Part shown: piece by piece, positions 4,225 through 39,142 of the stretch
How the letters are laid out: the number at the start of each line of letters is the position of its first letter
Position numbering within the stretch: position 1 is the first letter of the stretch
Assembly: GCF_000372725.1 (NCBI RefSeq)
Contig: NW_005201192.1
Location: forward strand, 1-64,000
DNA: 64,000 bases
Direction of reading: 5' to 3'
DNA from: Emiliania huxleyi CCMP1516
Lineage: Eukaryota
Notes under the pieces: generated by a model
Seen by the model: only the letters and a program-made list of their open reading frames with translations
Databases searched by the model: none
Told to the model about the DNA's origin: nothing
Made by a program: the position numbers and the translations under genes

Positions 4225-4645
4225 CGTCATCATCTGTCTTGCGTCCACCCATACCGCGTTGGTGTCCAGTCCGAGCCTGACTGTTCTTCACCTTCCTACA
4301 TACATACATACCTGAGCGCCCAGCGACGCGTGCCGGATGGAGTCCGGCCGCGGGTGACTAGGGAAGTTCGCTCAGGATGTGTCAATCAATAGCGCATCAC
4401 ACACCTCTCCTTAAAATCCCCGTGTGGTGGCGGCGTGCCGTCCTCCCATCCCTCCCTCGGGTTGTCTGTTTTCTTTCTTTCTTTTCCGATACCGATCATC
4501 CGGCCCGCTGGGTGCGCTTCTTAGCTCCCCGGCCCTGGATGTGAGGTTAATGACTGCACTCCAAGTGCTCCAAGTGCGCACGTTTGCGGGCACGGGACTG
4601 GCGCGCACTGGCACTAACACAGGTACACCACGGGAGCCGCCTAAG
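4225..4645. repeat. Composite of dispersed repeat modules shared with 38287-38575 and 54340-54490
   Basis: 4225-4298 matches the reverse complement of 38287-38360. 4595-4645 matches 38524-38575. 4487-4577 matches 54340-54436. 4444-4475 matches 54458-54490. Confidence 0.8.
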
Positions 4646-11642: not shown

Positions 11643-11864
11643 GCTGAGTGAGATGCCCTCTGTGACCCTGTCCATCGAGCTGCGACCATCTCCAGGATGA
11701 TAAGATACAAAAGTGAACCCATTATTCATCTCCCGTCTCGAGCGCGCCCACGAATGCTTCAAGGCATGCGCAATAGGCAAGTTGAACGGGGCATATCGTT
11801 ACTTGAAAGATCAAAGCAGCTATAAAGCACGGAAGCGAAACAAACCATTACACTTCATCACGGC

Positions 11865-13217
11865 CTACCACGCATTTTCAACAATCAAGGACAGTCGCCT
11901 TCTTCTGCCACCTTCAAGTGAGCGGGTCATCCGCCCAAAACCTGCGAGACCCGGCGTATATAGGGTGTGAACAGGTGGTGTGAACAGCGTCTCCTCCCCC
12001 CCACGGCGCAAGGTCGGTCGGGTCGGTCGGGTCGGTCGGGTCGGTCGGGTCCGATGCTCGGTCGGGTCGGTCGGGTCGGTCGGGTCCGATGCTCGGTCGG
12101 TCGGTCGGGTCCGATGCTCGGTCGGGTAGCACACCCCTTCGCACCACCAACAGAGCGCACGATACTGCGCGCGGCGCGGCCTTGTGCTTGGCGACGGCGC
12201 GGCTCTTGGGCTGGAAGGACATAACCCCTCGGTCGTCATCAGCTTGTGCACGCCAGCGATGCCCTCCTGGTACTGCAGCGCCTCCTCCAGCGTGGAGCGA
12301 GCCGGCATGCGGCGGCCCATGCCGTCGCGGTACGGATCGAGCTCCGCCTTGGCGGTCGCCTCGGGCACGCCCAGCAGCACGAGCGACTCGCCGAGCTGGT
12401 TCAGGAGCGAGTAGTAGACGTCGTCGCTCGAGACGCACACGTTCTTGTGCTCGACGGTGTTGCGGACGGTGCGAAAGGAGCCCTTGCCGTCGATGGCCGC
12501 CTTCCGCTGCGCCGCGTCGAAGGCGCTGCAGTTCTGCACGCACGCGCACAGCGCGGTCAGGTCCCAGTGGTCGACGCCGTCGAGCACCGTGTGTGGAAAG
12601 TTGATGAAGAGCGCCGCCGTGCGCTCCCAGCGAGGCATGCTGCGGTACTCGTCGCGCTCCTTGCGGCCGGTGGGCACGTTCTTGGAGATGAAGAGCGTGC
12701 CGCTCTCGTGCACGTACTCGTGGAGGAGGACGGCGTAGCGCCGGAAGGCCGCCGCGTCCTCCGGGTCCGGGTCTGTGTCGCGAAGCCACTCTGCGCTCAT
12801 TTTGGCGTCGAGCTCCGCCTGGACGCGCTGCATGACCTGCTTCACGATCACGCGGAGCAGTGGAGCGACGACCTTCTCCGCCGCCTCGCTCACCTGCCGC
12901 ATCACGTCCTCCGCCCGCTGCGCCTGCTTCTCGTTCCGAAGCAGCCTCGCCGCGCGAGACGCCGTCGCCGCGGAGAGCCGGAGCGCCTCGTCCTCCGCCG
13001 CCGACTGCAGAACAAGCCCCTCCTCCGACGCTGCCTCCGCTTGCTCCGCCGCTCCCTGGTCGACAGCGGCGTGATCCCGAGCGGTGCCGTCTCGCCCTCC
13101 TTGGCCGGCATGCATCCGCTCCATCTGCACGGGTGTCGCAACCGGAGCAAGGGTGACGAAAGCCTCTGGCTCCCAGCTCGCCTTCGCCTCAGACTTGGCT
13201 GGCACGAGTAGTGCCAT
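11865..13217 (-). CDS. Putative HEPN-domain protein (DZIP3/Swt1-like); 3' end runs into a simple repeat
   Basis: ATG at 13217 (MALLVPAK). Helical region with HWDLTALCACV followed by RTVRNTVEH (RNxxxH = Rx4H). Coding character is lost after ~12130. Confidence 0.6.
   Translation of the reverse strand: MALLVPAKSEAKASWEPEAFVTLAPVATPVQMERMHAGQGGRDGTARDHAAVDQGAAEQAEAASEEGLVLQSAAEDEALRLSAATASRAARLLRNEKQAQRAEDVMRQVSEAAEKVVAPLLRVIVKQVMQRVQAELDAKMSAEWLRDTDPDPEDAAAFRRYAVLLHEYVHESGTLFISKNVPTGRKERDEYRSMPRWERTAALFINFPHTVLDGVDHWDLTALCACVQNCSAFDAAQRKAAIDGKGSFRTVRNTVEHKNVCVSSDDVYYSLLNQLGESLVLLGVPEATAKAELDPYRDGMGRRMPARSTLEEALQYQEGIAGVHKLMTTEGLCPSSPRAAPSPSTRPRRAQYRALCWWCEGVCYPTEHRTRPTDRASDPTDPTDPTEHRTRPTRPTRPTRPTLRRGGEETLFTPPVHTLYTPGLAGFGRMTRSLEGGRRRRLSLIVENAW
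12012..12126. repeat. Tandem repeat (GGTCGGTCG)n with GGTCCGATGCTC interruptions
   Basis: Directly visible. Confidence 0.9.
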
Positions 13218-13243
13218 GGACCCAGCACCCGTCCTAGATCCGA

Positions 13244-13325
13244 GTCTAGATCTAGGTCTAGGTCTAGGTCTAGGTCTAGGTCTAGGTCTAGGTCTAGGTC
13301 TAGGTCTAGGTCTAGGTCTAGGTCT
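13244..13325. repeat. Hexamer microsatellite (TCTAGG)n, ~13 copies
   Basis: Directly visible just upstream of the HEPN ORF start. Confidence 0.95.
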
Positions 13326-13400
13326 GGGCCTGGGTCGGACGGGTGTCGGACGGGTGTCGGACGTCGGGCCCGGATCGAGGGTGGATGGAGGTAGGACGGA

Positions 13401-13479
13401 GGTGGACGGATGGGAGGGGGTCCGTCCACCTGCGTTTTCCCGTGGAAGGAGCTTGTTCACACCTCTTCCACGGGGAAAA
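13401..13479. other. Two adjacent inverted repeats (stem-loops)
   Basis: GGTGGACGGA-N10-TCCGTCCACC (13401-13430). TTTTCCCGTGGAAG-N16-CTTCCACGGGGAAAA (13435-13479). Confidence 0.8.
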
Positions 13480-13564
13480 ATGACCCTTTTCTACAGGGGT
13501 GGACGGTGGAGGTGGATGGTCGCTCAAAAACTTTTTTTTCAACTTCTCCCTACCTCAGATTTTT

Positions 13565-13816
13565 CTAAGTACTTTTATACTGAATTTTTCTAAGTACTGT
13601 GGACAAGGTGGATAAATACTCTTGCAACAGAGCGATGGCTATGTCGTAGCCGGGCGGCTGTCCGTACTGCGTGTAGTAGGCGCCCTTTATCGTCGCGACT
13701 GCTGCGCTGAGTGTGTGGGCATTTGGCTTGCGCATACTGCTTCGAACATAGTCGAGCGCGGCAGCGACGTTGTGAGCGTGCAACATGGCAACTGCGTTCT
13801 GGTTGCGGGTCGGCAT
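13565..13816 (-). CDS. Small hypothetical protein (83 aa)
   Basis: ATG in A-rich context (AAAAGATG), normal-complexity sequence, intronless, followed by an AT-rich 3' region. No family recognised. Confidence 0.45.
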   Translation of the reverse strand: MPTRNQNAVAMLHAHNVAAALDYVRSSMRKPNAHTLSAAVATIKGAYYTQYGQPPGYDIAIALLQEYLSTLSTVLRKIQYKST

Positions 13817-14154
13817 CTTTTCTATAACGAGGAAAAAAAAACGAGGACACCGCCCCGCCTTGACCGGCTCAGCGAGGAAAAAAAACGAGGCCTAGGACGT
13901 AAGCTCAGCGGCTCAGCGGCTCAGCGGCTCAGCCCGCGACAGATTTCTTTTCTTTTCTTCGTGCTCGGCGTGCGGCGGCGCTCTGGTGGTGACGTGAGCT
14001 GAGCGACCGAGCGGGAAGCGAGCGACTGTGCGGGCACGCGGCACTCCGCCCTTGCCTCCCCCCCCCCTCCGCCCCCACCACTCGCCACCGACACCGGCGC
14101 TCCCGGTCCCACACGCCCAGCGTCCTGAGCGAGCGAGCGAGCGCTGCGCACAGG

Positions 14155-15141
14155 ATGTCGCCACGCCGAGGGGCAGCTCGACCGCGAGGAGCGGACAAGT
14201 CGCCTTTGCTCCGGCCAGGGCCGTACACGTGGCAGCGGACGTTGTCTCCACTTGCCGCCGCTCGTGCCGGCGACTTGGGAGCACGCGCCGCCGCACAGCG
14301 CAACGCTGACCCCCTCGCCGCTGTGGCCACCCCTCGCCGGTCTCCTAGGATCTCTGCTGCGACCCCCGAGAGACAGACGGGGGGGCAGGGGGGGGAATGG
14401 GCGACGCAGGCCCCCGCGAGCGCGATCTCCCAGCACAGCGAGATCGAGGACGAGGAGCAGGAGGGCGAGGATGCGGAAGCGTCGGGGGAGGATGAGGAGG
14501 AGGATGGGGAGGAGGAGGAGGAGGAGGAGGAGGAGGAGGAGGAGGAGGAGGCACTGGCGGAGGAGGATGGGGGGAGGCAGCCAAGCATGCAGGACTTGTT
14601 CGAGGCGGAGCTGGAGGAAGCGCGGCAGGAGATCACAGCCCTCAAGAACAAGGTGGCGTCTCTCGAGGCGAGCCTCTCGGCCGTGCTGGGACGTGTCGCA
14701 GCCCTCGAGAACGGCGATGCGGAGGAGGCGCAGGCGCAAGATTCCGATATGGAGGAGGCTGCCCCGGCCCCGGCTGCTGCCCCGGCCCCGGCTGCAGCGG
14801 GCCCGCTCGTTCCGCAGATGCCGGAAAACGCCCCGGCCCTGGCTGCAGCAGGCCCGCTCTCGCCGCAGACGCCGCCAGATCTCGACCTCACGGACGCGCA
14901 GCGCTCCTTTCGTGAGGAGTTCCGGCTGCAGCAGCAGAACGACCTACTCTCCAACTACACCTTCGTCGGTTCGGACGGACGTGGTGGCATCTACCTCGAA
15001 AAAAACGTTGTCACGGAGGACGGCGTGGAGGAATCCGTCCGCTTCCGCATCCGCCGGTTCACCTCGGTGCCATCGGGGAAGGCGTTCCGCAAGAAGGTGT
15101 ACATGGCTTGGTCGGCGTCCGTTGCTAACCCGCGTAACTAG
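14155..15141 (+). CDS. Hypothetical acidic coiled-coil protein (328 aa)
   Basis: Poly-Glu tract, heptad segment LEEARQEITALKNKVASLEASLSAVLGRVAALE, and a globular-looking C-terminal ~65 aa. Confidence 0.6.
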   Translation: MSPRRGAARPRGADKSPLLRPGPYTWQRTLSPLAAARAGDLGARAAAQRNADPLAAVATPRRSPRISAATPERQTGGQGGEWATQAPASAISQHSEIEDEEQEGEDAEASGEDEEEDGEEEEEEEEEEEEEEALAEEDGGRQPSMQDLFEAELEEARQEITALKNKVASLEASLSAVLGRVAALENGDAEEAQAQDSDMEEAAPAPAAAPAPAAAGPLVPQMPENAPALAAAGPLSPQTPPDLDLTDAQRSFREEFRLQQQNDLLSNYTFVGSDGRGGIYLEKNVVTEDGVEESVRFRIRRFTSVPSGKAFRKKVYMAWSASVANPRN

Positions 15142-15146
15142 GCTGC

Positions 15147-15332
15147 CTATCGCTTCACACTGCGCTTCTTGCGCTTAGCCGCCGCTCGCTTCTTGGCCGC
15201 CGCCTTGGCCTCGGCTGTGAGAACCCAGCGCTTAGTTTTATGTCCTGTCGATCTGCTCACAGAGGATTTCAGCTTGTATCTTCCTCGAACTGTTCCTGGT
15301 TTAACTCCTTTCGTGCTTTTTGGTGCTGGCAT
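15147..15332 (-). CDS. Small, highly basic protein (61 aa), putative nucleic-acid binder
   Basis: MPAPKSTKGVKPGTVRGRYKLK...AKAAAKKRAAAKRKKRSVKR. Lys/Arg-rich. Converges on the 14155-15141 ORF with a 5-bp gap. Confidence 0.5.
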   Translation of the reverse strand: MPAPKSTKGVKPGTVRGRYKLKSSVSRSTGHKTKRWVLTAEAKAAAKKRAAAKRKKRSVKR

Positions 15333-15589
15333 GTGTACTATGAAGGTCTGTGTGTGATACATAGAGGTAGGAAAAAAATCAAGCGCCCTCCGTGAGTCAG
15401 ACCAGTCACCACACCGAAGAGGTCGAAAGTGACTGCTTCCGCGTAAGGAGGGTCGTCCACAGGGCCGTCGGTGGAAAACACTTTCCACTCTTTCCACTCG
15501 AGACGTTCGTGTAGGAGAGTCACCCGGCTCGAACCCATCCCGAACATATAACGGGATAGTTAGAAAAAACGAGCCGGGTCAGAGAGCCT

Positions 15590-15646
15590 CACTAGGACCT
15601 GCACTAGGACCTGCACTAGGACCTGCACTAGGACCTGCACTAGGAC
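15590..15646. repeat. 12-bp tandem repeat (CACTAGGACCTG) x~4.7
   Basis: Directly visible immediately downstream of the recombinase-RuvC stop codon. Confidence 0.9.
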
Positions 15647-15664
15647 TTGGACTCTTCTCTGAAT

Positions 15665-18600
15665 TCACATCGCCTCGTACTCACCGACTGCCAACGAGAA
15701 GCCGCTCTGCACGACGAGCTGGTGCAGCAGGATGCAGACGGCGTCGGTTGCGTCCTTACAGGCCGGCGGAGGGATGCGAAAGCGCTCGAGCAGCGACTCG
15801 CCCTTGCGCGGGAAGGATTTTTTCCAGCTCGATGAATTCACCTCAGACGATCGCCCGGCGCCAGCCTGGTACGCTGCCGCGTGCGCCGCCCCCCGCATGT
15901 AGGACGAGGTGTCGGCGCCCGATGCCGTCCCGGCAGCAAACCGATATGGCTCGACGAACACCTCCTTAGCGCCCCTGAGCATCGGCACGAGCATCTCGAT
16001 AGCGGAGCCGACGCGGATGTCTTGGCGTGACTTGTCGGCCGCGGCTCGAGGCTTGAAGGAGGTCTGCTGCACGCGTGTGATGTCGTTCGACACGACGGTG
16101 GCGACGGCGACGCCGTATCGCGAGTCCGTGATGCCCGGGTCGAGCGCCACGAAACGCTGCTGCGCCGGCTGCGTCGGTGGAGGGGGCGCAACCGGTGCCG
16201 GCGGTGCCAATGCGGGGTCGGGAGAGGTGGTGCCGCTGGCGTCGATGCCCGCCTGGAGCGCCTCGAGCACGGCGGAGTCGTATTTGAACGTCTCCTTGGC
16301 GTTCGACACGCCATAGACGAAGCGAAGCATCTCCGCGCGCAGCTGCTTGTCGACGTCTTTCGCCCACTGTGCCTTGCGCGCGACGGACTGCTTGTTGTGC
16401 AGCACGTGTCGGAGCAGATGCGGCCGCGGCACGGTCTCGCCGTCGGCGATCGTCAACGTGAGCGCCTTGTAGAGGATGTCGCGCTGGTAGCACAAGCGCT
16501 GCCGGCGGTTGTCGTCCGAGACGTTTTTCGGCTTAGGCTTGCAGCCGCTAAACTCGAGAGGCAGCCATTGGTGTACAAAGCGACCGACGATCTCGCCCAG
16601 CGTCCCGTCGGTCGTGAGGAACGAGAACTTGCTGTCGATGATCGCCTGCGTCGTCACTAGCGGTGCCTCGCCGCCTCCTCCTCCGCCGCCACCCTCGCCG
16701 CCTCCTCCGCCGCCGCCACCCTCGCCGCCTCCTCCTCCGCCGCCACCCTCGCCGCATCCGCCGCCGCCACCCTCGCCGCCTCCTCCGCCGCCACCCTCGC
16801 CGCCTCCGCCTCCCTCGCCACCTCCGCCTCCGCAGCCCTCGCCGCCTCCTCCGCCGCCACCCTCGCCGCCTCCTCCGCCGCCACCCCTCGCCGCCTTCTC
16901 CACCCTCGCCCGCTTCGACGACGGCTTGTCGACTGCAGCCTCGCCCGGCCGTAGCTGCGGCAGCTCGCCCGGCCGTAGCTGCGACAGCGAAAAGGTCTGC
17001 GCCGCGTCCTCGGAGTCCGACCACTCGCCCCTCGCCTTCAGCTCCCGCACGCAGAGCTCGACGGCCTCTTCGTTGCACGCGTCTGCCGCCCTCTCGGCCT
17101 CGCAATCCCTCACCGACGCGTCGAGCTCCCAGGGCGTCAGGTAGAGCCGCGCGCCCGTGCGCAGGCTTTCGGAGAGTGGCGTGGCCATGCCCAGCAGCGC
17201 GCGCGCGGCTCTCTCGTCGATTCCTTTCGCTCGAGAGACGATGTCGGAGCGCTCGAGGTCACTCAGCTGGTTGCTCTCCCACGCAGCTTGGATCTTCTCA
17301 GCGTCGTCGCCGGAGAGAAGGATCCGGCCTTGCTTGTCGAGCAGCTTCTCCACGCCGCGCAGGCTCGCCTTGAGCAACTTATCGTTGGCGAAACGATGCG
17401 AAGCGGGGATGAGAACCGTGTCGCCGAGGCGGATCTCCTGCGTCTCATAGTGGGCGAGCCGCTCATCGATCGTCTTGAGAAAGGAGTGGCCGCCAAAGCT
17501 CAGGTCCATGATGCTGCCGACCAACTTGTACGCGTCTGCTGGCGTCGGGGAGTCCTCGGTGATCATCAGCGCCGCGGAGTAGATGCGCGCGCGCGACATG
17601 ACGACCGCCACCTTCATCAGGTACATGCTCGTCTCGAAGAAGTGCGTGACGCTCTTGAACGAGGAGTCCTTGCCCGCAACCTGGAACGCGCGGAAGGCGT
17701 CGCAGTACGGCTTCGACAGCCCCCAGAGGATGAGCTCGGTCATCTCGTCGTCGTGCTCGGTCAACAGCTCCGTGAGCGCGCAGAGAGAGGCGGCCTGCGT
17801 GGGGTCGTCGCCGAGGTAGTGCGCAATCAGCTGCGTGGGGCGCCCGTGCATTGTGTAGTAGTTCTGGTCGCGCCGGCCCTCGCGGTTGTGTTCGGCGATA
17901 CGAGCGCCGTCGGCGTCCGAACAGTCGGGGTTGGCGCTCGTGTGCATCACGTTTAACTGCCGGAGCGCCTTGACGACGCCCCCCTCCACGGACATCCCGA
18001 GCTCCCTTGCAGCATCGCGCAGAGGCTCACTGTACAAGGAGTCGACAAACTCCGACGGCTTGTTGACAGCGCTCGCCAAGGCGGGCCAGTCGACCTTGGC
18101 CTGCTTGTTGTCCCGCCAGCCGGGGGGGGCGAGGTTGGCGAACTCCTTGCCGTGCTGGTACAGGCGCAGGAGGCCGGTTGCGAAGAGCGGACAGAGCGGT
18201 GTGACGCGCGCGGGGATGAGGTTGAGCGGCGCGTGGGACTGGTCGTTCTTGGAGCGGTGGTGCAGAGAGAGGCAGGCCGGCTGCCGACAGTAAGCCGCGT
18301 GCTTGAAAAGCGGAGCGGAGTATTGCTCGCCGGATCCGAACGCTGGGCGGAAGGTCGTGTGGCCGTAGTCCTGCGACACCATCAGGAGCTGCGCGCGCGG
18401 CCCGACGAGCGCAAAGCAGAGGTACTGCCACTGCTGGATCCACTTGTAGCGAGCGGCGGCCGAGTCTGCGGTGTCGGCCAACTCGAGGCACTCTTCCGCC
18501 AAGCGGTGCGCGTCCGAGTACGAGAGGGAGGCGTCGAGGCGGCAGAGCGCACTCTTGTCCTGCGACTCTTTGTGCGCTCGGTCACCCTTCTGTGCGGTCT

Positions 18601-18967
18601 TGTACATCTTGTTGAAGGCGTCCACACTTGAGAGCCACCCCGCCGGCATGCTGGTGAGGAGCACCTTGCAAAAGACGTGCCGCCAGCCGGAGATGATGCA
18701 CCGGCAGTGGCTGACGGTCACCCGCGGGGGGCTGTTCTGCAGAACATACCCCCGCGCCGTCCAGATGCCGGTGAGGCGCGAGAGTTCGGCGACGAGCGGC
18801 GCCGAGCGCCACTCCTCCCATCCGCAGTTCGCGCCGATGCGCTGCGCCCACTCCTCTACCGTCTCCCCCCGGGCCGGCCCGACCTCCTGCAGCGCGCGGA
18901 GGCCCCGTCGGAGCTTGTCGTCGCCCCCCGGGGCCGCGGCGGCGTCGCCGACTCGAGACTCTTCCAT
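15665..18967 (-). CDS. Tyrosine recombinase (Crypton/Ndc10- or protelomerase-like) fused to a C-terminal RuvC-like Holliday-junction resolvase
   Basis: Intronless ORF; likely ATG at 18967 (MEESRV). YR catalytic order: VGPRAQ (R), HRSKND (K), LCPLFATG, VVKALRQ (K/HxxR), IAEH (H), QNYY (Y). Then a Gly-rich linker and a possible GCR1_C-like segment. RuvC motifs: FVALDPG, VFVE, SSWKK, KDATDAVCI. Confidence 0.7.
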   Translation of the reverse strand: MEESRVGDAAAAPGGDDKLRRGLRALQEVGPARGETVEEWAQRIGANCGWEEWRSAPLVAELSRLTGIWTARGYVLQNSPPRVTVSHCRCIISGWRHVFCKVLLTSMPAGWLSSVDAFNKMYKTAQKGDRAHKESQDKSALCRLDASLSYSDAHRLAEECLELADTADSAAARYKWIQQWQYLCFALVGPRAQLLMVSQDYGHTTFRPAFGSGEQYSAPLFKHAAYCRQPACLSLHHRSKNDQSHAPLNLIPARVTPLCPLFATGLLRLYQHGKEFANLAPPGWRDNKQAKVDWPALASAVNKPSEFVDSLYSEPLRDAARELGMSVEGGVVKALRQLNVMHTSANPDCSDADGARIAEHNREGRRDQNYYTMHGRPTQLIAHYLGDDPTQAASLCALTELLTEHDDEMTELILWGLSKPYCDAFRAFQVAGKDSSFKSVTHFFETSMYLMKVAVVMSRARIYSAALMITEDSPTPADAYKLVGSIMDLSFGGHSFLKTIDERLAHYETQEIRLGDTVLIPASHRFANDKLLKASLRGVEKLLDKQGRILLSGDDAEKIQAAWESNQLSDLERSDIVSRAKGIDERAARALLGMATPLSESLRTGARLYLTPWELDASVRDCEAERAADACNEEAVELCVRELKARGEWSDSEDAAQTFSLSQLRPGELPQLRPGEAAVDKPSSKRARVEKAARGGGGGGGEGGGGGGGEGCGGGGGEGGGGGEGGGGGGGEGGGGGCGEGGGGGGGGEGGGGGGGGEGGGGGGGGEAPLVTTQAIIDSKFSFLTTDGTLGEIVGRFVHQWLPLEFSGCKPKPKNVSDDNRRQRLCYQRDILYKALTLTIADGETVPRPHLLRHVLHNKQSVARKAQWAKDVDKQLRAEMLRFVYGVSNAKETFKYDSAVLEALQAGIDASGTTSPDPALAPPAPVAPPPPTQPAQQRFVALDPGITDSRYGVAVATVVSNDITRVQQTSFKPRAAADKSRQDIRVGSAIEMLVPMLRGAKEVFVEPYRFAAGTASGADTSSYMRGAAHAAAYQAGAGRSSEVNSSSWKKSFPRKGESLLERFRIPPPACKDATDAVCILLHQLVVQSGFSLAVGEYEAM

Positions 18968-19025
18968 GTGAGACGGCGTGTGATACGAGACGGCGGGCAG
19001 TGGTGGACCTGCAACACACACATAC

Positions 19026-21533
19026 ATGCCCGTGGCCGCTCCCCCGCTCCCTGCCGCCTTCCGCGTCGGCGGCCGGCCCGTGCTCGGCTTTCTCATCCAC
19101 CGTTACGACCTCTTCGACCTCGGCGAGACCGAGCTCGTCTTTGGCCCGCCCTGCACGAGCAAGCAGCTCGGCGTCCGGCGGCCGTTTGTTGACGCCGTCG
19201 AGGCTGCCATGAATGGTCTCTTTGGGGACGTGGTGCCGGCGCTCACCTCGCTCGAGGTGTGCCTCCCGGAGGCGCTGCCCGACGACTTACTCGAGGGCAA
19301 GCGGGCTGGTGGACGCAACGCGTTCACCGCCTTCCACACGAGGGGCGTCCGCGTCGTGGTCACCTTCTCGCCCAAGCTCGGCACGCGCGAGCTGACGTGC
19401 CTAGGCGAGCCGACGTGGCGGTGTTGGCCGGCGGACTCAGCGCACTGGTACTCGATCGGCCTGCTCCGCCCCTGGTTCAGCGAGTCGCTCCCGCCCGACG
19501 AGTGCGAGCGGCGCATCACCGCCCACTTTGAGGCGGGCGCGCACCGCGAGTACCGCGAGCCCAACAAGACGGACCCCAGGCGCTGGCAGCTCGATGACGG
19601 CTCGGCGGTTCCGCTCGGCGGCAAGACGCGGCTGCCGGGCTCGGCGTGGCGGATCTGGGGGCTGCGAGGCTACCGGCTGCTCCCGGACGGCGGCGCGCAC
19701 GGCCGCGACGGCAGCCTCGTGCCCGAGGCCAGCCTGGCGCAGATCGCAAAGGAGGAGCTGCTGCCGTGGCCCGGCGCGGCCCTCGACTGGCGGCCCTCGG
19801 AGGCGGACGCGGAGTGCTGGTTCCGCCCCCTCGACGAGGAGACGACGGCGGCGCTCTTGCGGCTGCAAGCGGATCTGCGCGCGCAGCCGGCGCGGCCGCA
19901 GGGGCAGCAGGGGCAGCAGGGGCAGCAGGGGCAGCAGGGCGGGGTGCTCGGCGGTCGGAAGACGGACACTCGCGTCCGGCGCGTGGTGTGGCACCTCGCG
20001 CCGACGGGCCCCCGCGCGATGGTCGTCGTCGGCCACGCGTCGTGGGGAGGCGGCAATGACAAGAGCGGGCTGCGGCTCAAGGCGCTGCCGACGGCGGGCG
20101 AGCTCGCGGGGCCTTGCGCCGCGCTGCCCCCTCTTCCAGAGGCGGAGCAGCTGACTGCAGACGTCATCGCGCCCGTCTCGCACGTCCTCGCCTTCAACGC
20201 GCTGCTCGACGTGGCGTGGTGCAAGCCGAGCCCGCCGCCGAGCGGCCTAGCAGCGGGCGCCGAGACCGTCGCTTCGAGCAGCGCAGGCGGCAGCGACCCT
20301 CTCGTGCCGGTGGCGTGCGGCGTACCCGTCGGCGAGGGGAGGGCGGTGAGCAACGCGCTCGCCCGCGACGGCCCTCTCCCGCGGTACGCCGCCGCCGTTC
20401 CCGCCGACGCGGGGGCGGACACGTTGGAGAGGGCGGCGGCGAGGCAGGCCGAGCGCTTGCAGTTCGCCGAGGAGGGCAGGGCGGAGCAGCTAAAGTACGA
20501 CGAGGCGTGGCTCGCCGAGCGGGTGCCGAGCGCGGAGGATCTCGCCAGGAGCGCGCAGCGGGCTGCCGGCCCGGCGGGCTCCTCTTGCACGGGCTCCTCT
20601 TTCACGGGCGAGCCCTCCGTGTGCCAGTCGCTTGCGCGCCGGCTCGGAGCCCACATCCAGGCGGACCCGTTCGCCAACCCGCTGCTCAACGCGTCGGCCG
20701 AGGAGCTCGAGCGCACCGACGCGGCGTGGGGGCGGCTCTGCGACGATGACGCCGTCTGGATGGAGCCGGTAATCTTACGGCTCGTGGAGGCGGCGCCCGA
20801 GGGGCGCAAGGCGGGCGTGAGCCAGGAGCTGCGCGGGATGCAGCTCGACCTTGCGCGCACGGAGACTCGGCCCGCCCCGCCGCACCTGCGCCAGCTCGCG
20901 CAGGCGATGTACCCGTGCAAGGACGACCTCGCCGCGTGCCGCGCTTGGGACGCGCATTTCCGCAGCGGCGTGCCGTACGGCATGATCGACGTCGTCGGCC
21001 GCCTCCTTGCGGCCACTCTTGAGCTGCTCTGCCGGGAGGAGCGCGAAGCGGAGGACGCTGAGCGGCTTGTGGAGCGCGACCCCGCGTTCGTGGCCGCGCA
21101 GCGGGGGCGCGGCGGAGAAGCGGCACGAGTCGTGAATAAGCCTGCCGAGACACCGCGGCTAACCGCGGCTAACAAGGTTGCGGAGATGCGCGAGCTAACA
21201 GCGGGGTTGCCGGTCCCGGCGCCAGTGGAGGGGGTGGGCGCGCTGGGCAAGCGCAGAGCGGTGCCGTGCGACGTGGGTGCGGGTGCCAAGCGCCAGCGGC
21301 CCGGCGCGGGTGAGTCCGCGCGCTCGCTGCCGCCGAGTGAGGTGCCGGGCCGCCGCGCCGAGGTGCTGGAGGGACTACGCCGCGTGCTTCGCTTTGTGGA
21401 TCAGAGCCCGGAGGAGTTCTGGCTCAAGCACGGGCCAGCCGGGCCGTTCCCCTTCCCTGAGCAGCTGGCTGCATTGAGGGCGGAGCTGGCGGGGCCGTTT
21501 CAGGGGGGGGCGCCGTCACACGGGCGCGTGTAG
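19026..21533 (+). CDS. Hypothetical protein (835 aa), divergent from the recombinase gene
   Basis: Long intronless ORF with strong GC3 bias and Trp-rich globular segments. Its ATG is only 58 bp from the likely recombinase ATG. No family recognised. Confidence 0.7.
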   Translation: MPVAAPPLPAAFRVGGRPVLGFLIHRYDLFDLGETELVFGPPCTSKQLGVRRPFVDAVEAAMNGLFGDVVPALTSLEVCLPEALPDDLLEGKRAGGRNAFTAFHTRGVRVVVTFSPKLGTRELTCLGEPTWRCWPADSAHWYSIGLLRPWFSESLPPDECERRITAHFEAGAHREYREPNKTDPRRWQLDDGSAVPLGGKTRLPGSAWRIWGLRGYRLLPDGGAHGRDGSLVPEASLAQIAKEELLPWPGAALDWRPSEADAECWFRPLDEETTAALLRLQADLRAQPARPQGQQGQQGQQGQQGGVLGGRKTDTRVRRVVWHLAPTGPRAMVVVGHASWGGGNDKSGLRLKALPTAGELAGPCAALPPLPEAEQLTADVIAPVSHVLAFNALLDVAWCKPSPPPSGLAAGAETVASSSAGGSDPLVPVACGVPVGEGRAVSNALARDGPLPRYAAAVPADAGADTLERAAARQAERLQFAEEGRAEQLKYDEAWLAERVPSAEDLARSAQRAAGPAGSSCTGSSFTGEPSVCQSLARRLGAHIQADPFANPLLNASAEELERTDAAWGRLCDDDAVWMEPVILRLVEAAPEGRKAGVSQELRGMQLDLARTETRPAPPHLRQLAQAMYPCKDDLAACRAWDAHFRSGVPYGMIDVVGRLLAATLELLCREEREAEDAERLVERDPAFVAAQRGRGGEAARVVNKPAETPRLTAANKVAEMRELTAGLPVPAPVEGVGALGKRRAVPCDVGAGAKRQRPGAGESARSLPPSEVPGRRAEVLEGLRRVLRFVDQSPEEFWLKHGPAGPFPFPEQLAALRAELAGPFQGGAPSHGRV

Positions 21534-22025: not shown

Positions 22026-25000
22026 TCATTCCGCAGCCGGCCCCGGCCCCGCACCGACCAGGGGCGCAGTGCTCGGGCCACTTGCTGCCGCCTGGATGGT
22101 GGCCGCTGGATCGTCGCCATCGCGCGAAAGCGTCGCATGCACCTCCGGGAGCGGGCAGACCGAGAGCGGCCCGGTCGAGAGCGGGTTGTCGCAGACGGTG
22201 CACTGGAGCGGGGCGCCGGGCGTGGCGACGGAAGAGTCGACGTAGTCCCGGATGCACTCGCGGCAGAAGGCGTGGCCGCACGGGCTCGACGCGACCGGGT
22301 CCGTGGCGTCCTCGAAGCAGAGGTTGCAGGTGGGCGTCGCTTGCCCATAGGTGTGGTCGAGCCTCCCCCCCACGGCCGTCCAGGCGGCCACCATGGCAGA
22401 CGCCATCGTCTTGTACCACATGTCGGCGTGCACGGCCGCCAGCCTCCGGTAGAGCCGCCGCAGGGCACTCTGCGGCTCGTCCATCTGCTCGCTGTCGCAC
22501 ACGTGTGTCACATTGATCTGCTTCGGGCCATGAGGGCCGCGCGCGCAGCGGTGCACGAGCTGCACCGCGTCGTGCAGCGACCACGATGGTGTGCCGACCA
22601 GCACAAGGGCGGAGCAGCTGCCAAAAGCGTTGGTGCCGGCCGCGTTCGCGTCGACGGAGGCCACAAAGATGTACCTCGTCTGGGGCGGCGGCTGCGGCGC
22701 AGCGATCAGCTGCTCCGCGCGGCGGCGGCCGTCGGGCCCGATGGCATCGACCACGACGACGGTGTGCGGCGTAGCGGGCGCAGCAAGCAGCGAGAGCAGC
22801 GTGAGGATCGAGTGGGCGACGTCGAGGAGATGAGTGGCGACGAGGATGTGCCGGTGGCCTCCCCCTGCGGCGTGGTGCACCGCTGCGAGGACGGCGCCCT
22901 CCACGGCCGGAGAGAGGCCGCCGCTGCTGCGGAGGAGGCCGCTGTTGCCGAGCATGTCGGACTTGGCGGCCATCGGAGTGTCAACCACGCACACGCTCGC
23001 CACGTAGGTCTTTTCCCACGGATGCTCCATGGGCACGGTGTTCGCGAGCAGCTCCTGCATCAGCGGGGACGCCGAAGCCACATCGCCCGCGGCGCTGTCG
23101 AAGCACGGGACGGCGCTCACTGCGACGATGCTCTTCGCGGCCTCGAGGCACTGCTGCTGCGCGCGCCGGTCGTGCACAGCTCGGCCGTACGCCGTGCGCA
23201 TCAACAGCGCCGCCTCGTCGATGACGACGTGCAAGTTGCCGCAGCCGTCGGCGGCGGCTGCGACGAGCTCGGCGCTGCCGAAAAAGTCGCAGTGCCGCAT
23301 GAGGACCACGCTCGTCATCCCTCCGTTGCGGCGGAGCGTGGCGGAGACGGCTGCTGCGATGCGCTTGCGCTGCGACTCGTCGCTGGAGTCGAGGGCGCGC
23401 TCGCCGAGCACGCACACGCACACGTCCATGCGACGCAAGGGTTCGGCCAAGTCCGCGAGCGACGTGGGGGGCGCTAGCACGAGCACGGCCGGAGGCTCAC
23501 CCTCGGCGCTCACCCCCGCCGCGAGGCGTCCGCGGCACCACTCCAACATCACCTTCGTCTTGCCGGCGCCGCACGGGGCAACGAGGAGCCTGGTGGCGCT
23601 CCCGCTCTCTGCTGCGCCCAGCGCCGCGACCGCGTTGATCTGGTGCTCCATCAGGCTGCCGTCGGGATCGAGACGCAGCGCGCCGCAGCCGGCGAGAGCG
23701 GCCGGGGCCGCCCGGCGGAGGAGCTCGAGGGAACGCAGCGTGCGTTCGACGGGCGCCTCCGGCGTGCTCGGGCGAGCGGCCGCAAAGTCTGCAAACTCGG
23801 GGCACAGGCTCGACCCGGCGTGCGTCGCGCCGTCCGCCACTGTGACGCTGACGCGGGCATCACGCAGCGGCGCGCAGGGCGGCACCGCAATGCCGACGGG
23901 GGGGTCCGCCGCAGCTGCGCGCATGGCCGATGCCATGGCCGAGCAAAACTCAGGCTGCACGGCGTTGGCGCCACCACAGGCGAAGGCGGTGGCAAAGGCG
24001 GAGGCGTGCTGGTCGCGCGTGACCTCGCAGCCGGGCGGCGCGTAGACGTGGTAGCCGGCGGGCGAGCGCACCACGGTGGTGAGATTGTGCTGCGCAGCGG
24101 CGGCGCGCATCACCGCGTCGCACGACGGGCAGACGGGGTACTTGACAACAACGAAGGCGTGGGTCGCGGCCTCCGAGACCGCGCGCACGACAACGCGCAC
24201 CTCGGTGTGTTGCGCGAGTCGCGAGTGCGGGAGGAAGCCGCAGATGCGGCCTGGGCGGGGGCAGCACTTGCACCTCTCCGGCCGCGGCGCCGCCCCCGAA
24301 AAGCCAGCCGCCTGCGCCAGCTGTAGGTGCAGCTGGCCGCTCGCCTCGCCGTTCTCGTCGGGCCGCGGCGTCGGGATGGTGATCGGCTGTCCGCACGGCG
24401 TGCAGGTCAGATCGCGTGGCAGAAACCAAACTTCTGTTGTGATGCCAGACGCCACTGCACACACACGTTGCTGGTAAGATCCGCCGCCGGTGAGCACATA
24501 CGCGGCGGCGCACGCACCGCCGCCGTCGCTCGCGTCGGCCCACGTCGAGCGCTCCTGCGGCGACTCGGCTTGTCGCTGCTGCTGCTGCTGCCGCCGCTGC
24601 GGCTCCGCCTGCGACAGCGGAGGGTGCAGCTCAACCTCACGGCCGGATCTCGGCCCAATCTCGGGTAAATCAGGAGATACAGCCGAGAGACAGCCGAGAG
24701 ACAGCGGAGAGACAGCGGAGAGACAGCCGAGAGACAGCCGAGAGACAGCGGAGAGACAGCCGAGAGAGACAGCCGAGAGAGACAGCCGAGAGAGACAGCC
24801 GAGAGAGACAGAGAGAGAGACAGCCGAGATATAGCCCCATTCTCTCCTCGGCTCCGCTAAACCACAGCTGTATCTCGTCTTAGGGCCTACCTCCGCCGGC
24901 TGCGCCTCCTCGATGGCGGCGGAGGCGGCGCCAGCCTCGGCGCCAGCAGCAGTGGAGGGCGCCGGTGGCGGCCCCTCCCCCTCCGCTTCCGCCGCCGCCG

Positions 25001-25702
25001 CCGCCGCCTGCTCCGCCGCGCCCTCCGCAGCCGCCGCCGCCGCCGCCGCCGCCGCCGCCTGCTCCGTCGACGCCGCCGCCTCTGCGGCCGCCTCCGGCTC
25101 TGCGGCCGCCTCCGCCTCTGCGGCCGCCTCCACCTCCGCAAACGCCGCCGCCGCCGCCGCCGCCTCCTCCTCCGCCTCTGTCACGAGCGGTGTACGCGCT
25201 GGGGCACGCGCCAGGAGGGGTGGAGGGTTGATCCCCGCCAGCACACGCTCGCACTCCGACCCCACCCTCTGCCGGGCCTCGAGCAGGATCTCGGTGCTGT
25301 CGCAGGGGCGCGCCCGATCCAAGCCGAGCGGCTCGAACGACCACGACACGCCAGAACCGACCCGACTCGACTTGAACCACGGCGCACGCCGACTCGCATC
25401 CGCTGGCTGCGTCGCCTCGTCGCCCTGGTACGCGCGGTTGTTGCACAACAGTGTGCCAAGGCGCGAGGACGGCTCCGCGCTGTCGAGCAGCTCGCGCAAG
25501 CTCGTGACCAGCGACTTCAGCTCCTCGCCCGCCTGCTGCACGAACTGCTGCAAGCATCCGAGGAGCTGCTCCTTGCTCAGCGGGCCGTGGCGGGCAAGGA
25601 CTAGCGCGGCGACGTCACGGGTGCGACAAGTGAACCTTGCCGCTTGGGCTAGCCCGCTCGCCGGCGCCGCCGCCACAGCTGGCGCCGCCTGCTCCGCCCC
25701 GC

Positions 25703-25743
<41 letters not shown>

Positions 25744-26500
25744 TGCTCCACCGGCGCCGCCGCCGCTGCAGCCTCCGCCGCCGCCTCGACCGCCCGCGCG
25801 TACGCCACCGCCGCCTCCACCGCGGTGTCGAAGGGGTTGCCGATTTGTTTGCTCCTCCCGCCCACGGTGTGCCTCGCCGAGAAGCGACCTGAGGGCAGCT
25901 CGCACACGCCCTTGTACCTGGTGGCGGTGCGGCTGGAGAGGTGCAGCCGCAAGCCCTCCGCCTCTGTTGCCACCGCTGCCGCTTGGCGCTCAGCCGGCGC
26001 CTCGGCGACTGCAGCCTCGCCGCCAGCGCCGCCTGGCTCGCCCTCGCCCGAGTCCGCCGTCCCGCCCACCGCCGACGTCTCGCCCACCGCCGCTGCCGAC
26101 GGCCCTGCCTCTCCTGCCGCCGCCGCCTCGCCGACCGCCCACGCGTATGCCACCGCCGCCTCCACCGCGGTGTCGAAGAAGCCGAGGGAGACGCCCCGCC
26201 TGCGCGCCCAGAAGCGGCCTGAGAGCTGCTTGAACACGCCCTTGTAACCGGTGGCGTTGCTGCTCGAGAGAAGCAAGCGCAAACCCTCCGCCTACACAGA
26301 ACGTCGCAGCAGTAGTGACCGATGGCGCGGCGGATCTGCGTGTGCGCCGCACTGCGCGCACATCTCGGTCCTCGCCGACGCCGCACGCAAAGTCGCTGTA
26401 GAAGTTTGCTAGTGGGCCGATGGATGCGGCACCCGCGCCCAGGAGCTTGTCGGCGTAGTAGTCGAGCGCCTCGCCCACCTCGGCCACACGCGCTGCAATT
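22026..26500 (-). CDS. Multidomain protein: 2x AP2-like, winged-helix-like, Cys motifs, divergent SF2 (SNF2-like) helicase, C-terminal C3HC4 RING; 5' end lost at the gap
   Basis: AP2-like LRLHLSSRTATRYKGV...FDTAVEAAVAYARAV (twice). wHTH-like DVAALVLARHGPLSKEQL. Helicase motifs: LMEHQ, APCGAGKT, VVIDEAA, SAVP, AAGTNA, QLVHRCAR. RING CNLC...CGHAFCREC...CTVC. Probable intron at ~24640-24890. Confidence 0.75.
24675..24830. repeat. Intronic tandem repeat (GAGACAGCCGA)n
   Basis: Directly visible 11-13-bp units inside the probable intron of the helicase gene. Confidence 0.85.
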
Positions 26501-28541: not shown

Positions 28542-29422
28542 CTGAGGGAGGGTGTAGAGGATGTAGAGTGTAGAGCGCTGTAGAGCTGTAGAGATGTAGA
28601 GCGCTCTGGAGCGCTGTAGAGCTGTAGAGCTCTACATCGGCTGCGGGACGAACTGCCTCCGTTGTAGAGCCATGTAGAGCGCGATTTTGTTGTAGAGGCT
28701 CTACAGCCAAACCGCCGGGAAGGCAGTGACTCAAAGAGGTCGAGTCGCACTAATGGGGTGTCTCCGAGCTTACTGGAGCTCTGATGGACGGCCCTGACTA
28801 TCCCTGACACACAGAGAGTCACTCTGACGGCACACAACACCCTATATCTGCGTCATGACCAGCCTGCCATGCGTCGCCGGTGCCGCATTTGTCGCTGTGC
28901 TTCTTTAGCAGGCGGTGGACTGTCGGCTGCGAGGACGGTCGCATTTGCGCGAGGCGAGGTGAGCATTTAGACGCGTTGCATGCGCCATGACTCGCGCCAG
29001 CGCGTGCGGGAGCTCCTGGCTGAGCGTTGAGTCCAGGCGAGTTGTGCTGGCCACGATCGCTACGCCGAGCCGAGCTGACGTGCTGAGGCGCCGGCCAGTC
29101 GCAGCCGCGAGGCATGCCACAGCAGCAGAGGCACCTGCCACCCATTGGGCGGGCAGACAGAAGGCCAGGGCAGCACTGGCAAGTGCAACGCGCCTCATGT
29201 CGGAGAGCGACCGTTCCTCGTTCGCGCCGCTTATGATGTAGAGTTTGTTGTAGAGATTTCACGTTGTAGAGCGCCTCTACATCGCTCTACAACGGAGGCG
29301 CATCGTCACGCGCCGGATGTAGAGCTCTACAGCTCTACATTGCTCTACAGCGCTCCAGAGCGCTCTACATCTCTACAGCTCTACAGCGCTCTACACTCTA
29401 CATCCTCTACACCCTCCCTCAG
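28542..29422. mobile_element. Foldback-like non-autonomous TIR element, 881 bp, 8-bp TSD
   Basis: Termini CTGAGGGAGGGTGTAGAGG and CCTCTACACCCTCCCTCAG. The ~140-bp imperfect TIRs are built from TGTAGAG units. Perfect TSD TCTCAATG at 28534-28541 and 29423-29430. Confidence 0.9.
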
Positions 29423-36612: not shown

Positions 36613-39142
36613 ATCGGCCGAAGGTGGATGCAGAAGAGACAGACTTGTGATACGTAAGACATTTGTTGTCGCCTCAGGCGCTACTTGGCTCGGGCAAGAC
36701 ACCGAAATACGCGACGTCTTGTCGACGCACTATGGATCGCGGGCGCGTACTTACATAACATGGCTGATCTGTGCATTCTGGGCGACTACATATGCGTGGC
36801 AGTACGGCTGGATCGTCGAGTTTGGCTTGTGCATTGGCCTGGGCGTCACGGCTGACGCACCGGGACCAATAACAGCCGCTGACGCGAGCCGCAGGGCAAA
36901 GTCCAAGAAGGCTCCGACCCCTCCTGCTGTTGATGGCTGTTTCATAGAGAGGCGACAACAGTCAGGCCACAACGAGACTGGACACCCACTTGGAAGAGGC
37001 AAGTTATCGCAGGGGATGGTCGTGGTGGCACACTGGAGCGAGACAAGACACAATCAGACACGACATGCGCGGAGTGTCCTCATGTCATGTGCGTCTGCGA
37101 GGCCGCGCGCGAAGTACAGTGGGGAACCCTTACGAGTTACGTGCGATCTGTCGGATTTATCCATTTTGCGTGTACTTGTAGTGTTGTAAGGACGTGCTGC
37201 ACTTGTAGTGTTGTAAGGACGTGCTGCTCTGAGAACCAGACGTCTCGAACACAGAGAGCCCGGGCCCTTTCGGAGTCGCGCACGCACAGGACACCACGAG
37301 AAACATAGACCACCATGCCACCAGTCCCCGTCGACGCGCGGGCGAGCGGGATGGGGCCCGGCCCGCTTGCTCGGCGCACGTTAGCTACGCCGTGGGCTCA
37401 GGCCCCCGTTCTCACACCGACGCCGCTCGCTCAGGCCTCGCCGAACTCGAACTTGAACTCGTGGCCCTCCTGCCTCCTCCTTCGAGGCCCACTTTGCGCC
37501 CGCGATCGTGAAATCGAAAGAGCCTTGCCATTCGCCTTGAGCTCCTTGGAGAGGTACTTCACGAACTTCTTGTAGCTGCGTGGGCGGCAGGAGCAGCGCG
37601 ACGGGAGGTGAATTGCACGTGTGGGGGGCGTGTGCGGGTGTGTGCGGGCGGTGTGGAGGCGTGGAAAGCGGGAGGATCACTTCTTCCCGTTCTTCGTGAT
37701 GGGGGGCGGCTTGCTCATATTCTTCTCTGCGCGGCGCGTCTGCGCGACAAACGCTGTGTACAGCCATGCTTGGCGCGGGGTGTCGGAAACGAGCCGTGGC
37801 GGGGTGTGCGATGCCGCGCCGCGCCGACGGCAGGCGGGGGCGCAGGGGTGCGGGAGCGCGCGGGGGTCACGCTTCAGAGACATTAGGTGCGCACCTTTTA
37901 TTTTTTGAGCCGCTGGGAACCCTGTAGCCTGTTCATGCCAATCCTCCGACTGTTGACTTGTACTCGAGTACGTCGTGCCCGTCTCACGACTGGCACACCT
38001 TAAGGCTGGCACATGGACACGCCTCAGCGCGGCACTGATCTCGAACTTTAACAACATTTCTTGTGTTTTCACGAACGAACGAACCATGTGGTCAGGAAAC
38101 GAATGTGTGGCCAAATGTGCTCTCTGTCTGTTATCTGCCAACAGTCGCTTCCCAATTTCCTCGCTTCCCGACTTCCAGTGCGATAAAAAGGGAATGCGCC
38201 TACGGGTGGACCCCCCCCCCCCCACACACACAGCGCTCACAACTCACAAAACTCCACCGTTCACACTGGCCAGTTAGTGAGTTATTTAGGAAGGTGAAGA
38301 GCAGCCAGGTTCGGACTGGACACCAGCGCGGTATGGATGGACGCAAGACAGGCGATGACGGCACGCTGGAGCGACACACTCACACAGACAGACACAGACA
38401 CACACAAACAAAGACACACACACACACAAGACACTGACTGGCCGTGCGTGCCCCAGTGTCGTCGTATCGTGCGATAAAGAGAATTTCACAAACAACAAAT
38501 CTCCCTCGCACAGCACTGGGCAAGGGAATGGCGCGCACTGGCACTAACACAGGTACCACCACGGGAGCCGCCTAAGTAAGTAAGCACTCCAGCGATTGGC
38601 TAGAGCCTAGACGAGCGGCCTACCTCCACGGGGCTGTTGGCGCAGGGGGAGGTGTCAATCACGCTCCCGGGACGCCGGAGAGATCGGGTTGGTCTCCCCC
38701 GCCTTCAGCCCTGACTGACCCGACGGGGACGCCACCACCCTCGCCCAGGGATCTACAATGCTGTCTTAAGGTCCGACCTGTGGGCTCTGCCTGCGCTCGG
38801 CACCGGGCACCGCCTCGGTATACAAAATGCGCCTGCGGGCGGACCCTCACAGATCACAGATCACTCCAGCGATAAAGAAAGAGAGACGTGTCTCTGGCGC
38901 GAACTCGCGGCGGGCGCTCCCAACCTCGTTCGCTGCCCCACGCACACGGCCGCGCCCTTCGCCCCACGGCGGATGGACGTTAGTCCCGAAGGGCGCCGCA
39001 CCGCTGCCCCCAAGGCAAAGAAGGGGCGGACGAGGTACCTCCGCGTCTCTGGCCCTGACCAGGCCTCGCTGGACGGCGGCATTGACAGTGCAGAGGAGGT
39101 TGGAGCGCAGCCACCTGGCTGGTCTCTTGGGCGGCTGTCGCT

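What the first reader, a model, noticed from the sequence alone, without database searches (positions are those of the whole stretch)
15665..18967. Single polypeptide fusing a tyrosine recombinase to a RuvC-like Holliday-junction resolvase
Seen: one uninterrupted ORF carries YR-type residues in canonical order: R in VGPRAQ (~18396), K in RSKND (~18250), KALR (~17965), H in IAEH (~17889) and Y in QNYY (~17860). After a Gly-rich linker, the C-terminal ~160 aa hold all four RuvC acidic positions (ALDPG, VFVE, DATD) plus the WKK motif. Established: SKxxQ...CPxxA is typical of Crypton/Ndc10 YRs. KxxR in place of HxxR is typical of protelomerases and topoisomerase IB. YRs work through a Holliday-junction intermediate, and RuvC cuts such junctions. 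Inference: one enzyme may both create and resolve junctions, or generate hairpin/linear ends, for a new class of eukaryotic mobile element. I know of no described eukaryotic transposase with this architecture.
Basis: partly seen in the sequence, partly recalled or inferred. Interest (0 to 1): 0.93.

Follow-up and report, generated by a model that had tools for sequence, protein, structure and literature searches.

The report
Algal recombinase–resolvase fusion protein family
A marine alga encodes one protein that joins a likely tyrosine recombinase to a RuvC-type DNA-junction cutter, a pairing conserved in five very divergent lineages, which likely lets a Crypton-like jumping gene both make and cut the four-way DNA junction it needs to insert.

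Summary
The fusion is real. One intron-free 1,100-aa ORF (15665-18967, minus strand) recurs full-length in four other lineages (62, 39, 30 and about 22% identity) that lack the Gly repeat, so it is not an assembly error. The C-terminal 165 aa are RuvC-like: AlphaFold model matches T. thermophilus RuvC (Z 15.2), relatives pass the Pfam RuvC cut-off, catalytic acids largely conserved. The N-terminal part is very likely a Crypton/Ndc10-type tyrosine recombinase: R-K-R-H-Y invariant, language-model neighbours are NDC10_II/integrase, but its fold could not be modelled and direct profile tests against phage recombinases failed. The protelomerase-like KxxR is not conserved (3 of 9), so the hairpin-end idea falls. 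Broken and intact copies, two 3' flanks, and a conserved downstream module (61-aa basic ORF plus 125-nt non-coding segment, inverted in a 33%-identity relative) point to a mobile element; its ends and copy number are not established. Best model: the recombinase makes the first strand exchange, and the tethered RuvC cuts the Holliday junction. Eight literature searches found no such fusion. New variant of tyrosine-recombinase transposon; interest 0.75.

The parts
15665..18967 (-). YR-RuvC fusion ORF, 1,100 aa (P0001); in-frame upstream ATGs to 19096
   Evidence: full-length relatives
18563..18919 (-). N-terminal helical domain (res 17-135), position of a recombinase core-binding domain (inferred)
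   Evidence: pLDDT mostly 83-88; no fold match listed because RuvC hits fill the lists
17768..18520 (-). Tyrosine-recombinase-like catalytic domain (res ~150-400): R191, K240, R336, H360, Y370
   Evidence: invariant residues; ESM Atlas NDC10_II 0.95 / Phage_integrase 0.94; weak NDC10_II E 0.06-0.07 in relatives; most conserved region, 76% to P0002
17018..17767 (-). Middle helical region (res ~400-650), conserved, no family match
16666..16895 (-). Gly-rich repeat linker, length-polymorphic, absent from relatives
16223..16660 (-). Conserved helical domain (res 770-915); resembles the GCR1_C position in CryptonF by eye only
   Evidence: 65% to P0002; no Pfam hit; no profile match to P0081/P0048 counterparts
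15668..16162 (-). RuvC-like Holliday-junction resolvase domain (res 936-1100): D943, E1006, D1072, D1075
15655..15665 (.). 3' fork at 15660, five bases past the stop codon: contigs of runs X1 and X6 leave the window here, a contig of X2 follows the window
15590..15653 (.). 12-bp tandem array (4.8 copies); contains a 9-mer (GGACCTGCA) also found at 19005-19013
15404..15525 (.). Conserved ~125-nt non-coding segment with GTGGAA-N13-TTCCAC inverted repeat; 74% identical to L095
   Evidence: no Rfam match
15147..15332 (-). 61-aa basic ORF, homolog beside the YR-RuvC gene of L095 (there in the opposite orientation)
   Evidence: tblastn E 1e-11, blastn E 9e-9; no Pfam/PHROG hit
14155..15141 (+). Acidic / coiled-coil ORF converging on the small ORF; L095 has a compositionally similar ORF in the same relative place; membership of the element uncertain
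   Evidence: local score 134 vs shuffled max 87, inflated by acidic runs
18986..19013 (.). Candidate 5' boundary zone: depth step and contig fork at 18986 (X1), contig end at 19000 (X2), 9-mer repeat at 19005-19013

Best explanation
This ORF is a single protein with a RuvC-fold domain fused behind a likely Crypton/Ndc10-type tyrosine recombinase, and it is likely the transposase of a Crypton-like DNA transposon family of marine algae in which the recombinase would make the first strand exchange and the tethered RuvC domain would cut the resulting Holliday junction. Steps: (1, shown) fusion, catalytic residues kept in both halves across five lineages; (2, strongly inferred) the N-terminal half is an active tyrosine recombinase that cleaves via Y370; (3, inferred) it sits in a mobile element that also carries a small basic protein and a 125-nt cis segment; (4, inferred) recombination with short, imperfect 4-6 bp targets stalls at the junction because the second exchange needs matching overlap DNA (recalled), and RuvC cleavage, then host ligation or replication, completes integration or separates donor from target, which could raise copy number.
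For: Fusion in P0001, P0002, P0020, P0022, P0081. RuvC: ranks 1-10 of the PDB Foldseek list are all RuvC, Z 15.2 / rmsd 3.0 / 147 aligned to 4ld0; hhalign to six RuvC proteins scores 35 vs at most 20.7 in 200 shuffles, all four acidic positions aligned; relatives P0045, P0048, P0081 exceed the Pfam RuvC cut-off. YR: invariant R-K-R-H-Y; Atlas neighbours NDC10_II, Phage_integrase, DUF3504; family aligns to P0081, which has HSFR, GH and Y, at score 38 vs at most 20.8 in 40 shuffles. Mobility: frameshifted and truncated copy L094 is 94% identical to intact L095; L094 shares a dispersed repeat with this window (36 of 36 nt), so a 30%-identity family occurs in a closely related host; two 3' flanks; none of the 21 clusters looked up was a named reference-genome protein; no viral locus. 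Cryptons use 4-6 bp terminal repeats (PMC3212892) and gain copies by an unexplained route (PMC9977147).
Against: No element ends or terminal direct repeats found; the 9-mer repeat lies 20-30 nt outside the contig forks. The YR domain did not fold (pLDDT 25-40), has no Pfam, PHROG or PDB sequence hit, and its profile did not match XerC/Int/Cre (score 11.2; 62 of 100 shuffles as good) or TelN. Depth in X1 is 28 over the gene vs 6-12 on the flanks but 21-25 at 19402-19850, so multiple copies are suggested, not shown. P0022 has lost the last RuvC aspartate. The fold is shared with non-resolvases (IsrB Z 12.1, TEFM 11.6), so junction specificity is not shown. No activity data.
Confidence: 0.55

Rival explanations
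1. The protein is the integration and genome-resolution enzyme of a larger virus-like or plasmid-like element (PLV-type or episome): the recombinase integrates, RuvC resolves replication concatemers as poxvirus resolvase does.
For: OmPLV carries Y-rec and a Holliday-junction resolvase as separate genes (PMC12721341). RuvC half is nearest to phage/bacterial RuvC. Lower-GC module with a small basic protein beside the gene (53% vs 66%); neighbouring intron-poor ORFs incl. a helicase.
Against: No capsid, packaging ATPase or polymerase family among the window ORFs scanned (14 plus 8 ORFs, not all ORFs); no hit in IMG/VR; recombinase neighbours are eukaryotic Crypton/Ndc10 types.
Confidence: 0.15
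2. An ordinary Crypton-type transposon whose recombinase completes both exchanges; the RuvC domain is an accessory nuclease with another job (cleaning up stalled intermediates, nicking branched targets, or working with the conserved 125-nt segment as an RNA).
For: Known Cryptons move without RuvC (PMC9977147). One lineage lacks the last aspartate. RuvC folds in IsrB/IS110 work with RNA (ranks 5 and 29).
Against: RuvC half kept in all five full-length lineages; best matches are true resolvases; the domain is compact with no RNA-binding insertions; segment matches no Rfam family and folds better than shuffles in only one of two copies.
Confidence: 0.15
3. A domesticated host gene (like Ndc10 or DUF3504 genes) acting in host DNA maintenance.
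For: Expressed (contigs in RNA runs X2, X6, X7), intron-free, conserved neighbours could be host synteny; Cryptons were domesticated repeatedly (PMC3212892).
Against: Domesticated Crypton genes lose catalytic residues (PMC3212892), these keep them; broken copies and several divergent families; module inverted between lineages; not seen as a named reference protein.
Confidence: 0.11
4. Protelomerase-like enzyme generating hairpin or linear ends.
For: KALR in P0001; 8-bp palindrome TGAATTCA at the 3' fork (sequence).
Against: K conserved in 3 of 9; P0081 has HSFR; no TelN match.
Confidence: 0.04

Closest known systems
Crypton DNA transposons (CryptonF / CryptonS; Kojima and Jurka 2011, PMC3212892)
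   Same: Single long ORF with an N-terminal tyrosine recombinase keeping R..R..H..Y; further C-terminal domains; nearest language-model neighbours are oomycete proteins and NDC10_II; no terminal inverted repeats seen.
   Different: C-terminal RuvC-type resolvase fused in frame (described extras are GCR1_C, C48 peptidase, a Mariner DDE, or Fanzor); HxxR histidine variable; terminal direct repeats and GCR1_C not demonstrated; linked small basic ORF and non-coding segment.
RuvC Holliday-junction resolvases (T. thermophilus/E. coli RuvC, phage RuvC, plant MOC1, poxvirus resolvase, Ydc2)
   Same: Fold (Z 15.2), D-E-D/H-D catalytic set.
   Different: Those are stand-alone proteins; here fused behind ~930 aa; junction cleavage untested.
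Crypton elements carrying Fanzor (TnpB-type RuvC; PMC13565253)
   Same: A tyrosine-recombinase element carrying a RuvC-fold nuclease.
   Different: Fanzor is a split-RuvC RNA-guided nuclease in its own gene (recalled); this is a compact contiguous resolvase-type domain in the same polypeptide.
OmPLV of Oxyrrhis marina (PMC12721341)
   Same: Tyrosine recombinase and Holliday-junction resolvase in one eukaryotic mobile element.
   Different: Separate genes in a 25-kb virus with capsid, ATPase and polymerase; none detected here.
Protelomerases (TelN)
   Same: KxxR in this copy.
   Different: K not conserved in the family; no profile match.

Membership tests
RuvC-like Holliday-junction resolvase | RNase H / RuvC fold | tested here: met
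   pLDDT 70-92, Z 15.2, rmsd 3.0 over 147 residues to 4ld0; PDB Foldseek ranks 1-10 all RuvC
RuvC-like Holliday-junction resolvase | Four catalytic acidic positions | tested here: met
   D943, E1006, D1072, D1075 align to E. coli D8/E67/D139/D142; conservation
RuvC-like Holliday-junction resolvase | Symmetric cleavage of four-way junctions by a dimer | not testable with these tools
   needs biochemistry
Tyrosine recombinase | Catalytic R-K-(H)xxR-H/W-Y in order | tested here: met
   R, K, R, H, Y invariant in all covering relatives; first H variable, present in P0081
Tyrosine recombinase | Integrase catalytic fold or significant profile match | tested here: inconclusive
   Atlas 0.93-0.97 to NDC10_II/integrase clusters, NDC10_II E 0.06-0.07; model low confidence; small XerC/Int/Cre profile no match
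Tyrosine recombinase | 3'-phosphotyrosine intermediate, strand exchange | not testable with these tools
   needs biochemistry
Crypton transposon | YR without reverse transcriptase | tested here: met
   no RT in the protein or in the window ORFs scanned
Crypton transposon | 4-6 bp terminal direct repeats / defined ends | tested here: inconclusive
   ends unknown; 9-mer repeat not at the contig forks
Crypton transposon | Interspersed multicopy family | tested here: inconclusive
   no whole genome; depth 28 vs 6-12 and 21-25, two 3' flanks; broken plus intact copies in a sister lineage
CryptonF | GCR1_C domain | tested here: inconclusive
   no Pfam hit in res 770-915 or relatives; resemblance by eye only, recalled
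Protelomerase | Conserved K/R in place of the HxxR histidine and TelN-like profile | tested here: not met
   K in 3 of 9; no TelN match
Polinton-like virus / endogenous virus | Capsid, A32 ATPase, polymerase genes nearby | tested here: inconclusive
   none among the ORFs scanned, but divergent capsids can escape Pfam/PHROG; no IMG/VR locus

The most novel reading that the evidence does not exclude
An old, diverse, undescribed group of eukaryotic DNA transposons whose single enzyme both builds and cuts Holliday junctions, freeing tyrosine-recombinase integration from the need for matching sites and giving copy gain, with a small basic accessory protein and an invertible or RNA-forming 125-nt cis element as further parts of the machine.
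Probability: 0.4. Interest if true: 0.88.

Novelty: new variant of a known kind. Interest (0 to 1): 0.75.

Why it matters
Tyrosine recombinases normally resolve their own Holliday intermediate, and Crypton transposition has not been shown experimentally (PMC13565253); active Cryptons gain copies in a way the excision-integration model does not explain (PMC9977147). A natural fusion with a junction-cutting nuclease gives a direct handle: mutate either active site and look at intermediates. It would add a new route for junction resolution in eukaryotic transposition, a nuclear use of a RuvC resolvase, and possibly a recombinase with relaxed site requirements.

Tried and rejected
No whole genome is held, so ends and copy number could not be read directly. 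Single-sequence AlphaFold failed (pLDDT 36); the 19-row model folded RuvC and the N-terminal helices but not the recombinase core, and no separate fold was left. Pfam, PHROG and PDB sequence searches of P0001 or its profiles gave nothing relevant; the REV, phage zinc-binding and protein A hits are below cut-off and judged chance. Profile comparisons with Cre, XerC, lambda Int, L093, TelN: no match; these are 1-4 sequence profiles, so weak tests. GCR1_C: not detected. No related locus in viral contigs nor for this lineage in metagenome contigs; no phage match for the RuvC domain. The alternative 3' flank of X1 is not elsewhere in the window. Rfam: no match; the two-sequence consensus fold is too thin to call an RNA. 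RuvC homodimer prediction: no verdict, a control scored higher. Earlier findings of the scan: none. Zero cover of X2, X6 at 11779-13731 was not used. L096 (35 residues, E 1e-4) was dropped as uninformative. Of 30 hits, 15 were aligned; short near-identical fragments were left out. Protelomerase reading rejected (see rivals).
Full report
Observation. The window holds one uninterrupted minus-strand ORF from 18967 to 15665 (1,100 aa), with in-frame ATGs up to 19096. No whole genome was available.

The fusion is not an artefact. The word-index search found one relative, P0002 (62%, no Gly run), whose cluster has 5 full-length members of 10. The HMMER search of 1.84 billion representatives gave 30 hits at E 0.001 or better, among them full-length P0020 (39%) and P0022 (30%; cluster of 45). 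A cluster look-up then gave P0081, a 1,060-aa protein about 22% identical in the N-terminal alignment. All five carry both halves. Contig L095 encodes 933 unbroken codons of the P0022 type. In run X6 (RNA by guess) one contig spans 18810-15975 with an in-frame 168-nt shorter Gly repeat. The gene is covered by contigs of RNA runs (X7; X2, which shows a 120-nt joint readable as a GC-AG intron), which shows presence in RNA libraries, not a proven single transcript.

C-terminal domain. Residues 936-1100 model confidently and match RuvC: PDB Foldseek ranks 1-10 are all RuvC; VIA-align gives Z 15.2 to T. thermophilus RuvC, then P. aeruginosa RuvC 14.9, phage RuvC 13.6, MOC1 12.8, IsrB 12.1, canarypox resolvase 11.8. 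Independently, a two-sequence profile aligns to six RuvC proteins over 147 columns, score 35 against a maximum of 20.7 in 200 column shuffles, and relatives P0045, P0048, P0081 pass the Pfam RuvC cut-off (PHROG 159). D943 is kept in 9 of 9, E1006 in 11 of 11, D1072 in 9 of 11, D1075 in 10 of 11 rows.

N-terminal domain. Residues 131-400 are the best conserved part (76% to P0002). R191, K240 (8 of 8), R336, H360, Y370 (9 of 9) are invariant. The ESM Atlas places the region next to oomycete proteins (0.97), NDC10_II (0.95), Phage_integrase (0.94) and DUF3504/integrase (0.93), all ten named hits in one clan; two relatives hit NDC10_II weakly (E 0.06-0.07). The family profile aligns to P0081 (score 38 vs maximum 20.8 in 40 shuffles), which has a canonical HSFR, GH and Y. 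Against: the domain did not fold (pLDDT 25-40), had no PDB or Pfam hit and did not match small XerC/Int/Cre or TelN profiles. I rate the recombinase assignment about 0.9. The KxxR argument fails: K is present in 3 of 9.

Context. In DNA-like run X1 depth is 27.6-28.8 over 15660-18986, 6-11 on the 3' side, 12 just upstream and 21-25 at 19402-19850; the tool warns depth is no copy number, so this only suggests extra copies. Contigs of X1 and X6 leave the window at 15660, five bases past the stop, whereas one of X2 follows it: two 3' flanks exist. L094 is a frameshifted, truncated copy 94% identical to intact L095 and shares a dispersed repeat with this window, so very divergent families occur in related hosts. 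Unexpectedly, L095 carries right after its stop codon the same module as the window: a 61-64 aa basic ORF (E 1e-11) and a ~125-nt non-coding segment at 74% identity with a GTGGAA-N13-TTCCAC inverted repeat, but inverted relative to the fusion gene. It has no Rfam match. This rests on two loci only. Element ends were not found; a 9-mer repeated at 19005 and in the tandem array at 15590-15653 lies outside the forks. No viral hallmark gene was seen among the ORFs scanned and no IMG/VR locus.

Mechanism. Most likely a Crypton-like transposase: Y370 cleaves and exchanges one strand pair between element end and a short target; the second exchange normally needs matching overlap DNA (recalled, as are the CTX-phage and integron cases where the host resolves the junction), and the tethered RuvC domain would cut the stalled junction instead. 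Shown: architecture and residues. Inferred: activity of both halves, mobility, order of events. Confidence 0.55; rivals are a virus/episome enzyme (0.15), accessory nuclease (0.15), domesticated gene (0.11), protelomerase (0.04).

Literature. Read: PMC3212892, parts 1-2 of 7 of the text (Cryptons have 4-6 bp direct repeats; extras are GCR1_C, C48 peptidase, a Mariner DDE); passages of PMC9977147 and its preprint (active Cryptons excise yet gain copies); passages of PMC13565253 (Fanzor in Cryptons; mechanism not demonstrated), PMC5718144 and PMC12721341 (OmPLV has Y-rec and HJR as separate genes). Eight searches (listings only for the other papers) showed no YR-RuvC resolvase fusion. The library lacks most subscription papers and Repbase, and I read no supplements, where a Crypton with this domain could be listed.

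Verdict. Real, conserved, apparently undescribed fusion; works like a Crypton with a built-in junction resolvase; Crypton membership not proven. New variant of a known kind, interest 0.75.

Noticed in passing
window 15147-15525 and L095 2817-3210: Small basic ORF plus conserved non-coding segment, linked to the fusion gene in both lineages but in opposite orientation; could be an invertible module, a binding-site array, a promoter or an RNA.
   Followed up: partly
P0048 (463 aa): Coiled coil, a helical domain recalling GCR1_C by eye, then a Pfam-positive RuvC; perhaps the C-terminal part of a further distant family.
   Followed up: partly
window 11865-13217 (-): 450-aa ORF with a WDLTAL...RNTVEH stretch that recalls a HEPN (RxxxxH) domain; recalled, no Pfam hit.
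   Followed up: no
window 22026-26291 (-): 1,421-codon frame with AP2-like repeats (PHROG 99 hit), helicase-like region and RING finger.
   Followed up: no
window 19026-21533 (+): 835-aa ORF divergent from and abutting the fusion gene; no family hit.
   Followed up: partly
window 15660-15667: Palindrome TGAATTCA spans the stop codon and the fork; in the X1 flank a convergent frame may end on it.
   Followed up: partly
window 14033-14153: 120-nt joint in run X2 readable as a GC-AG intron just before the ATG of the acidic ORF.
   Followed up: no
window 28542-29422: 81-nt perfect inverted repeat arms 719 nt apart in a TGTAGAGC-rich tract, MITE-like.
   Followed up: no
window 4225-4645, 38283-38576, 54339-54418; L094 4713-4752: Dispersed repeat family shared between the window and L094.
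   Followed up: partly
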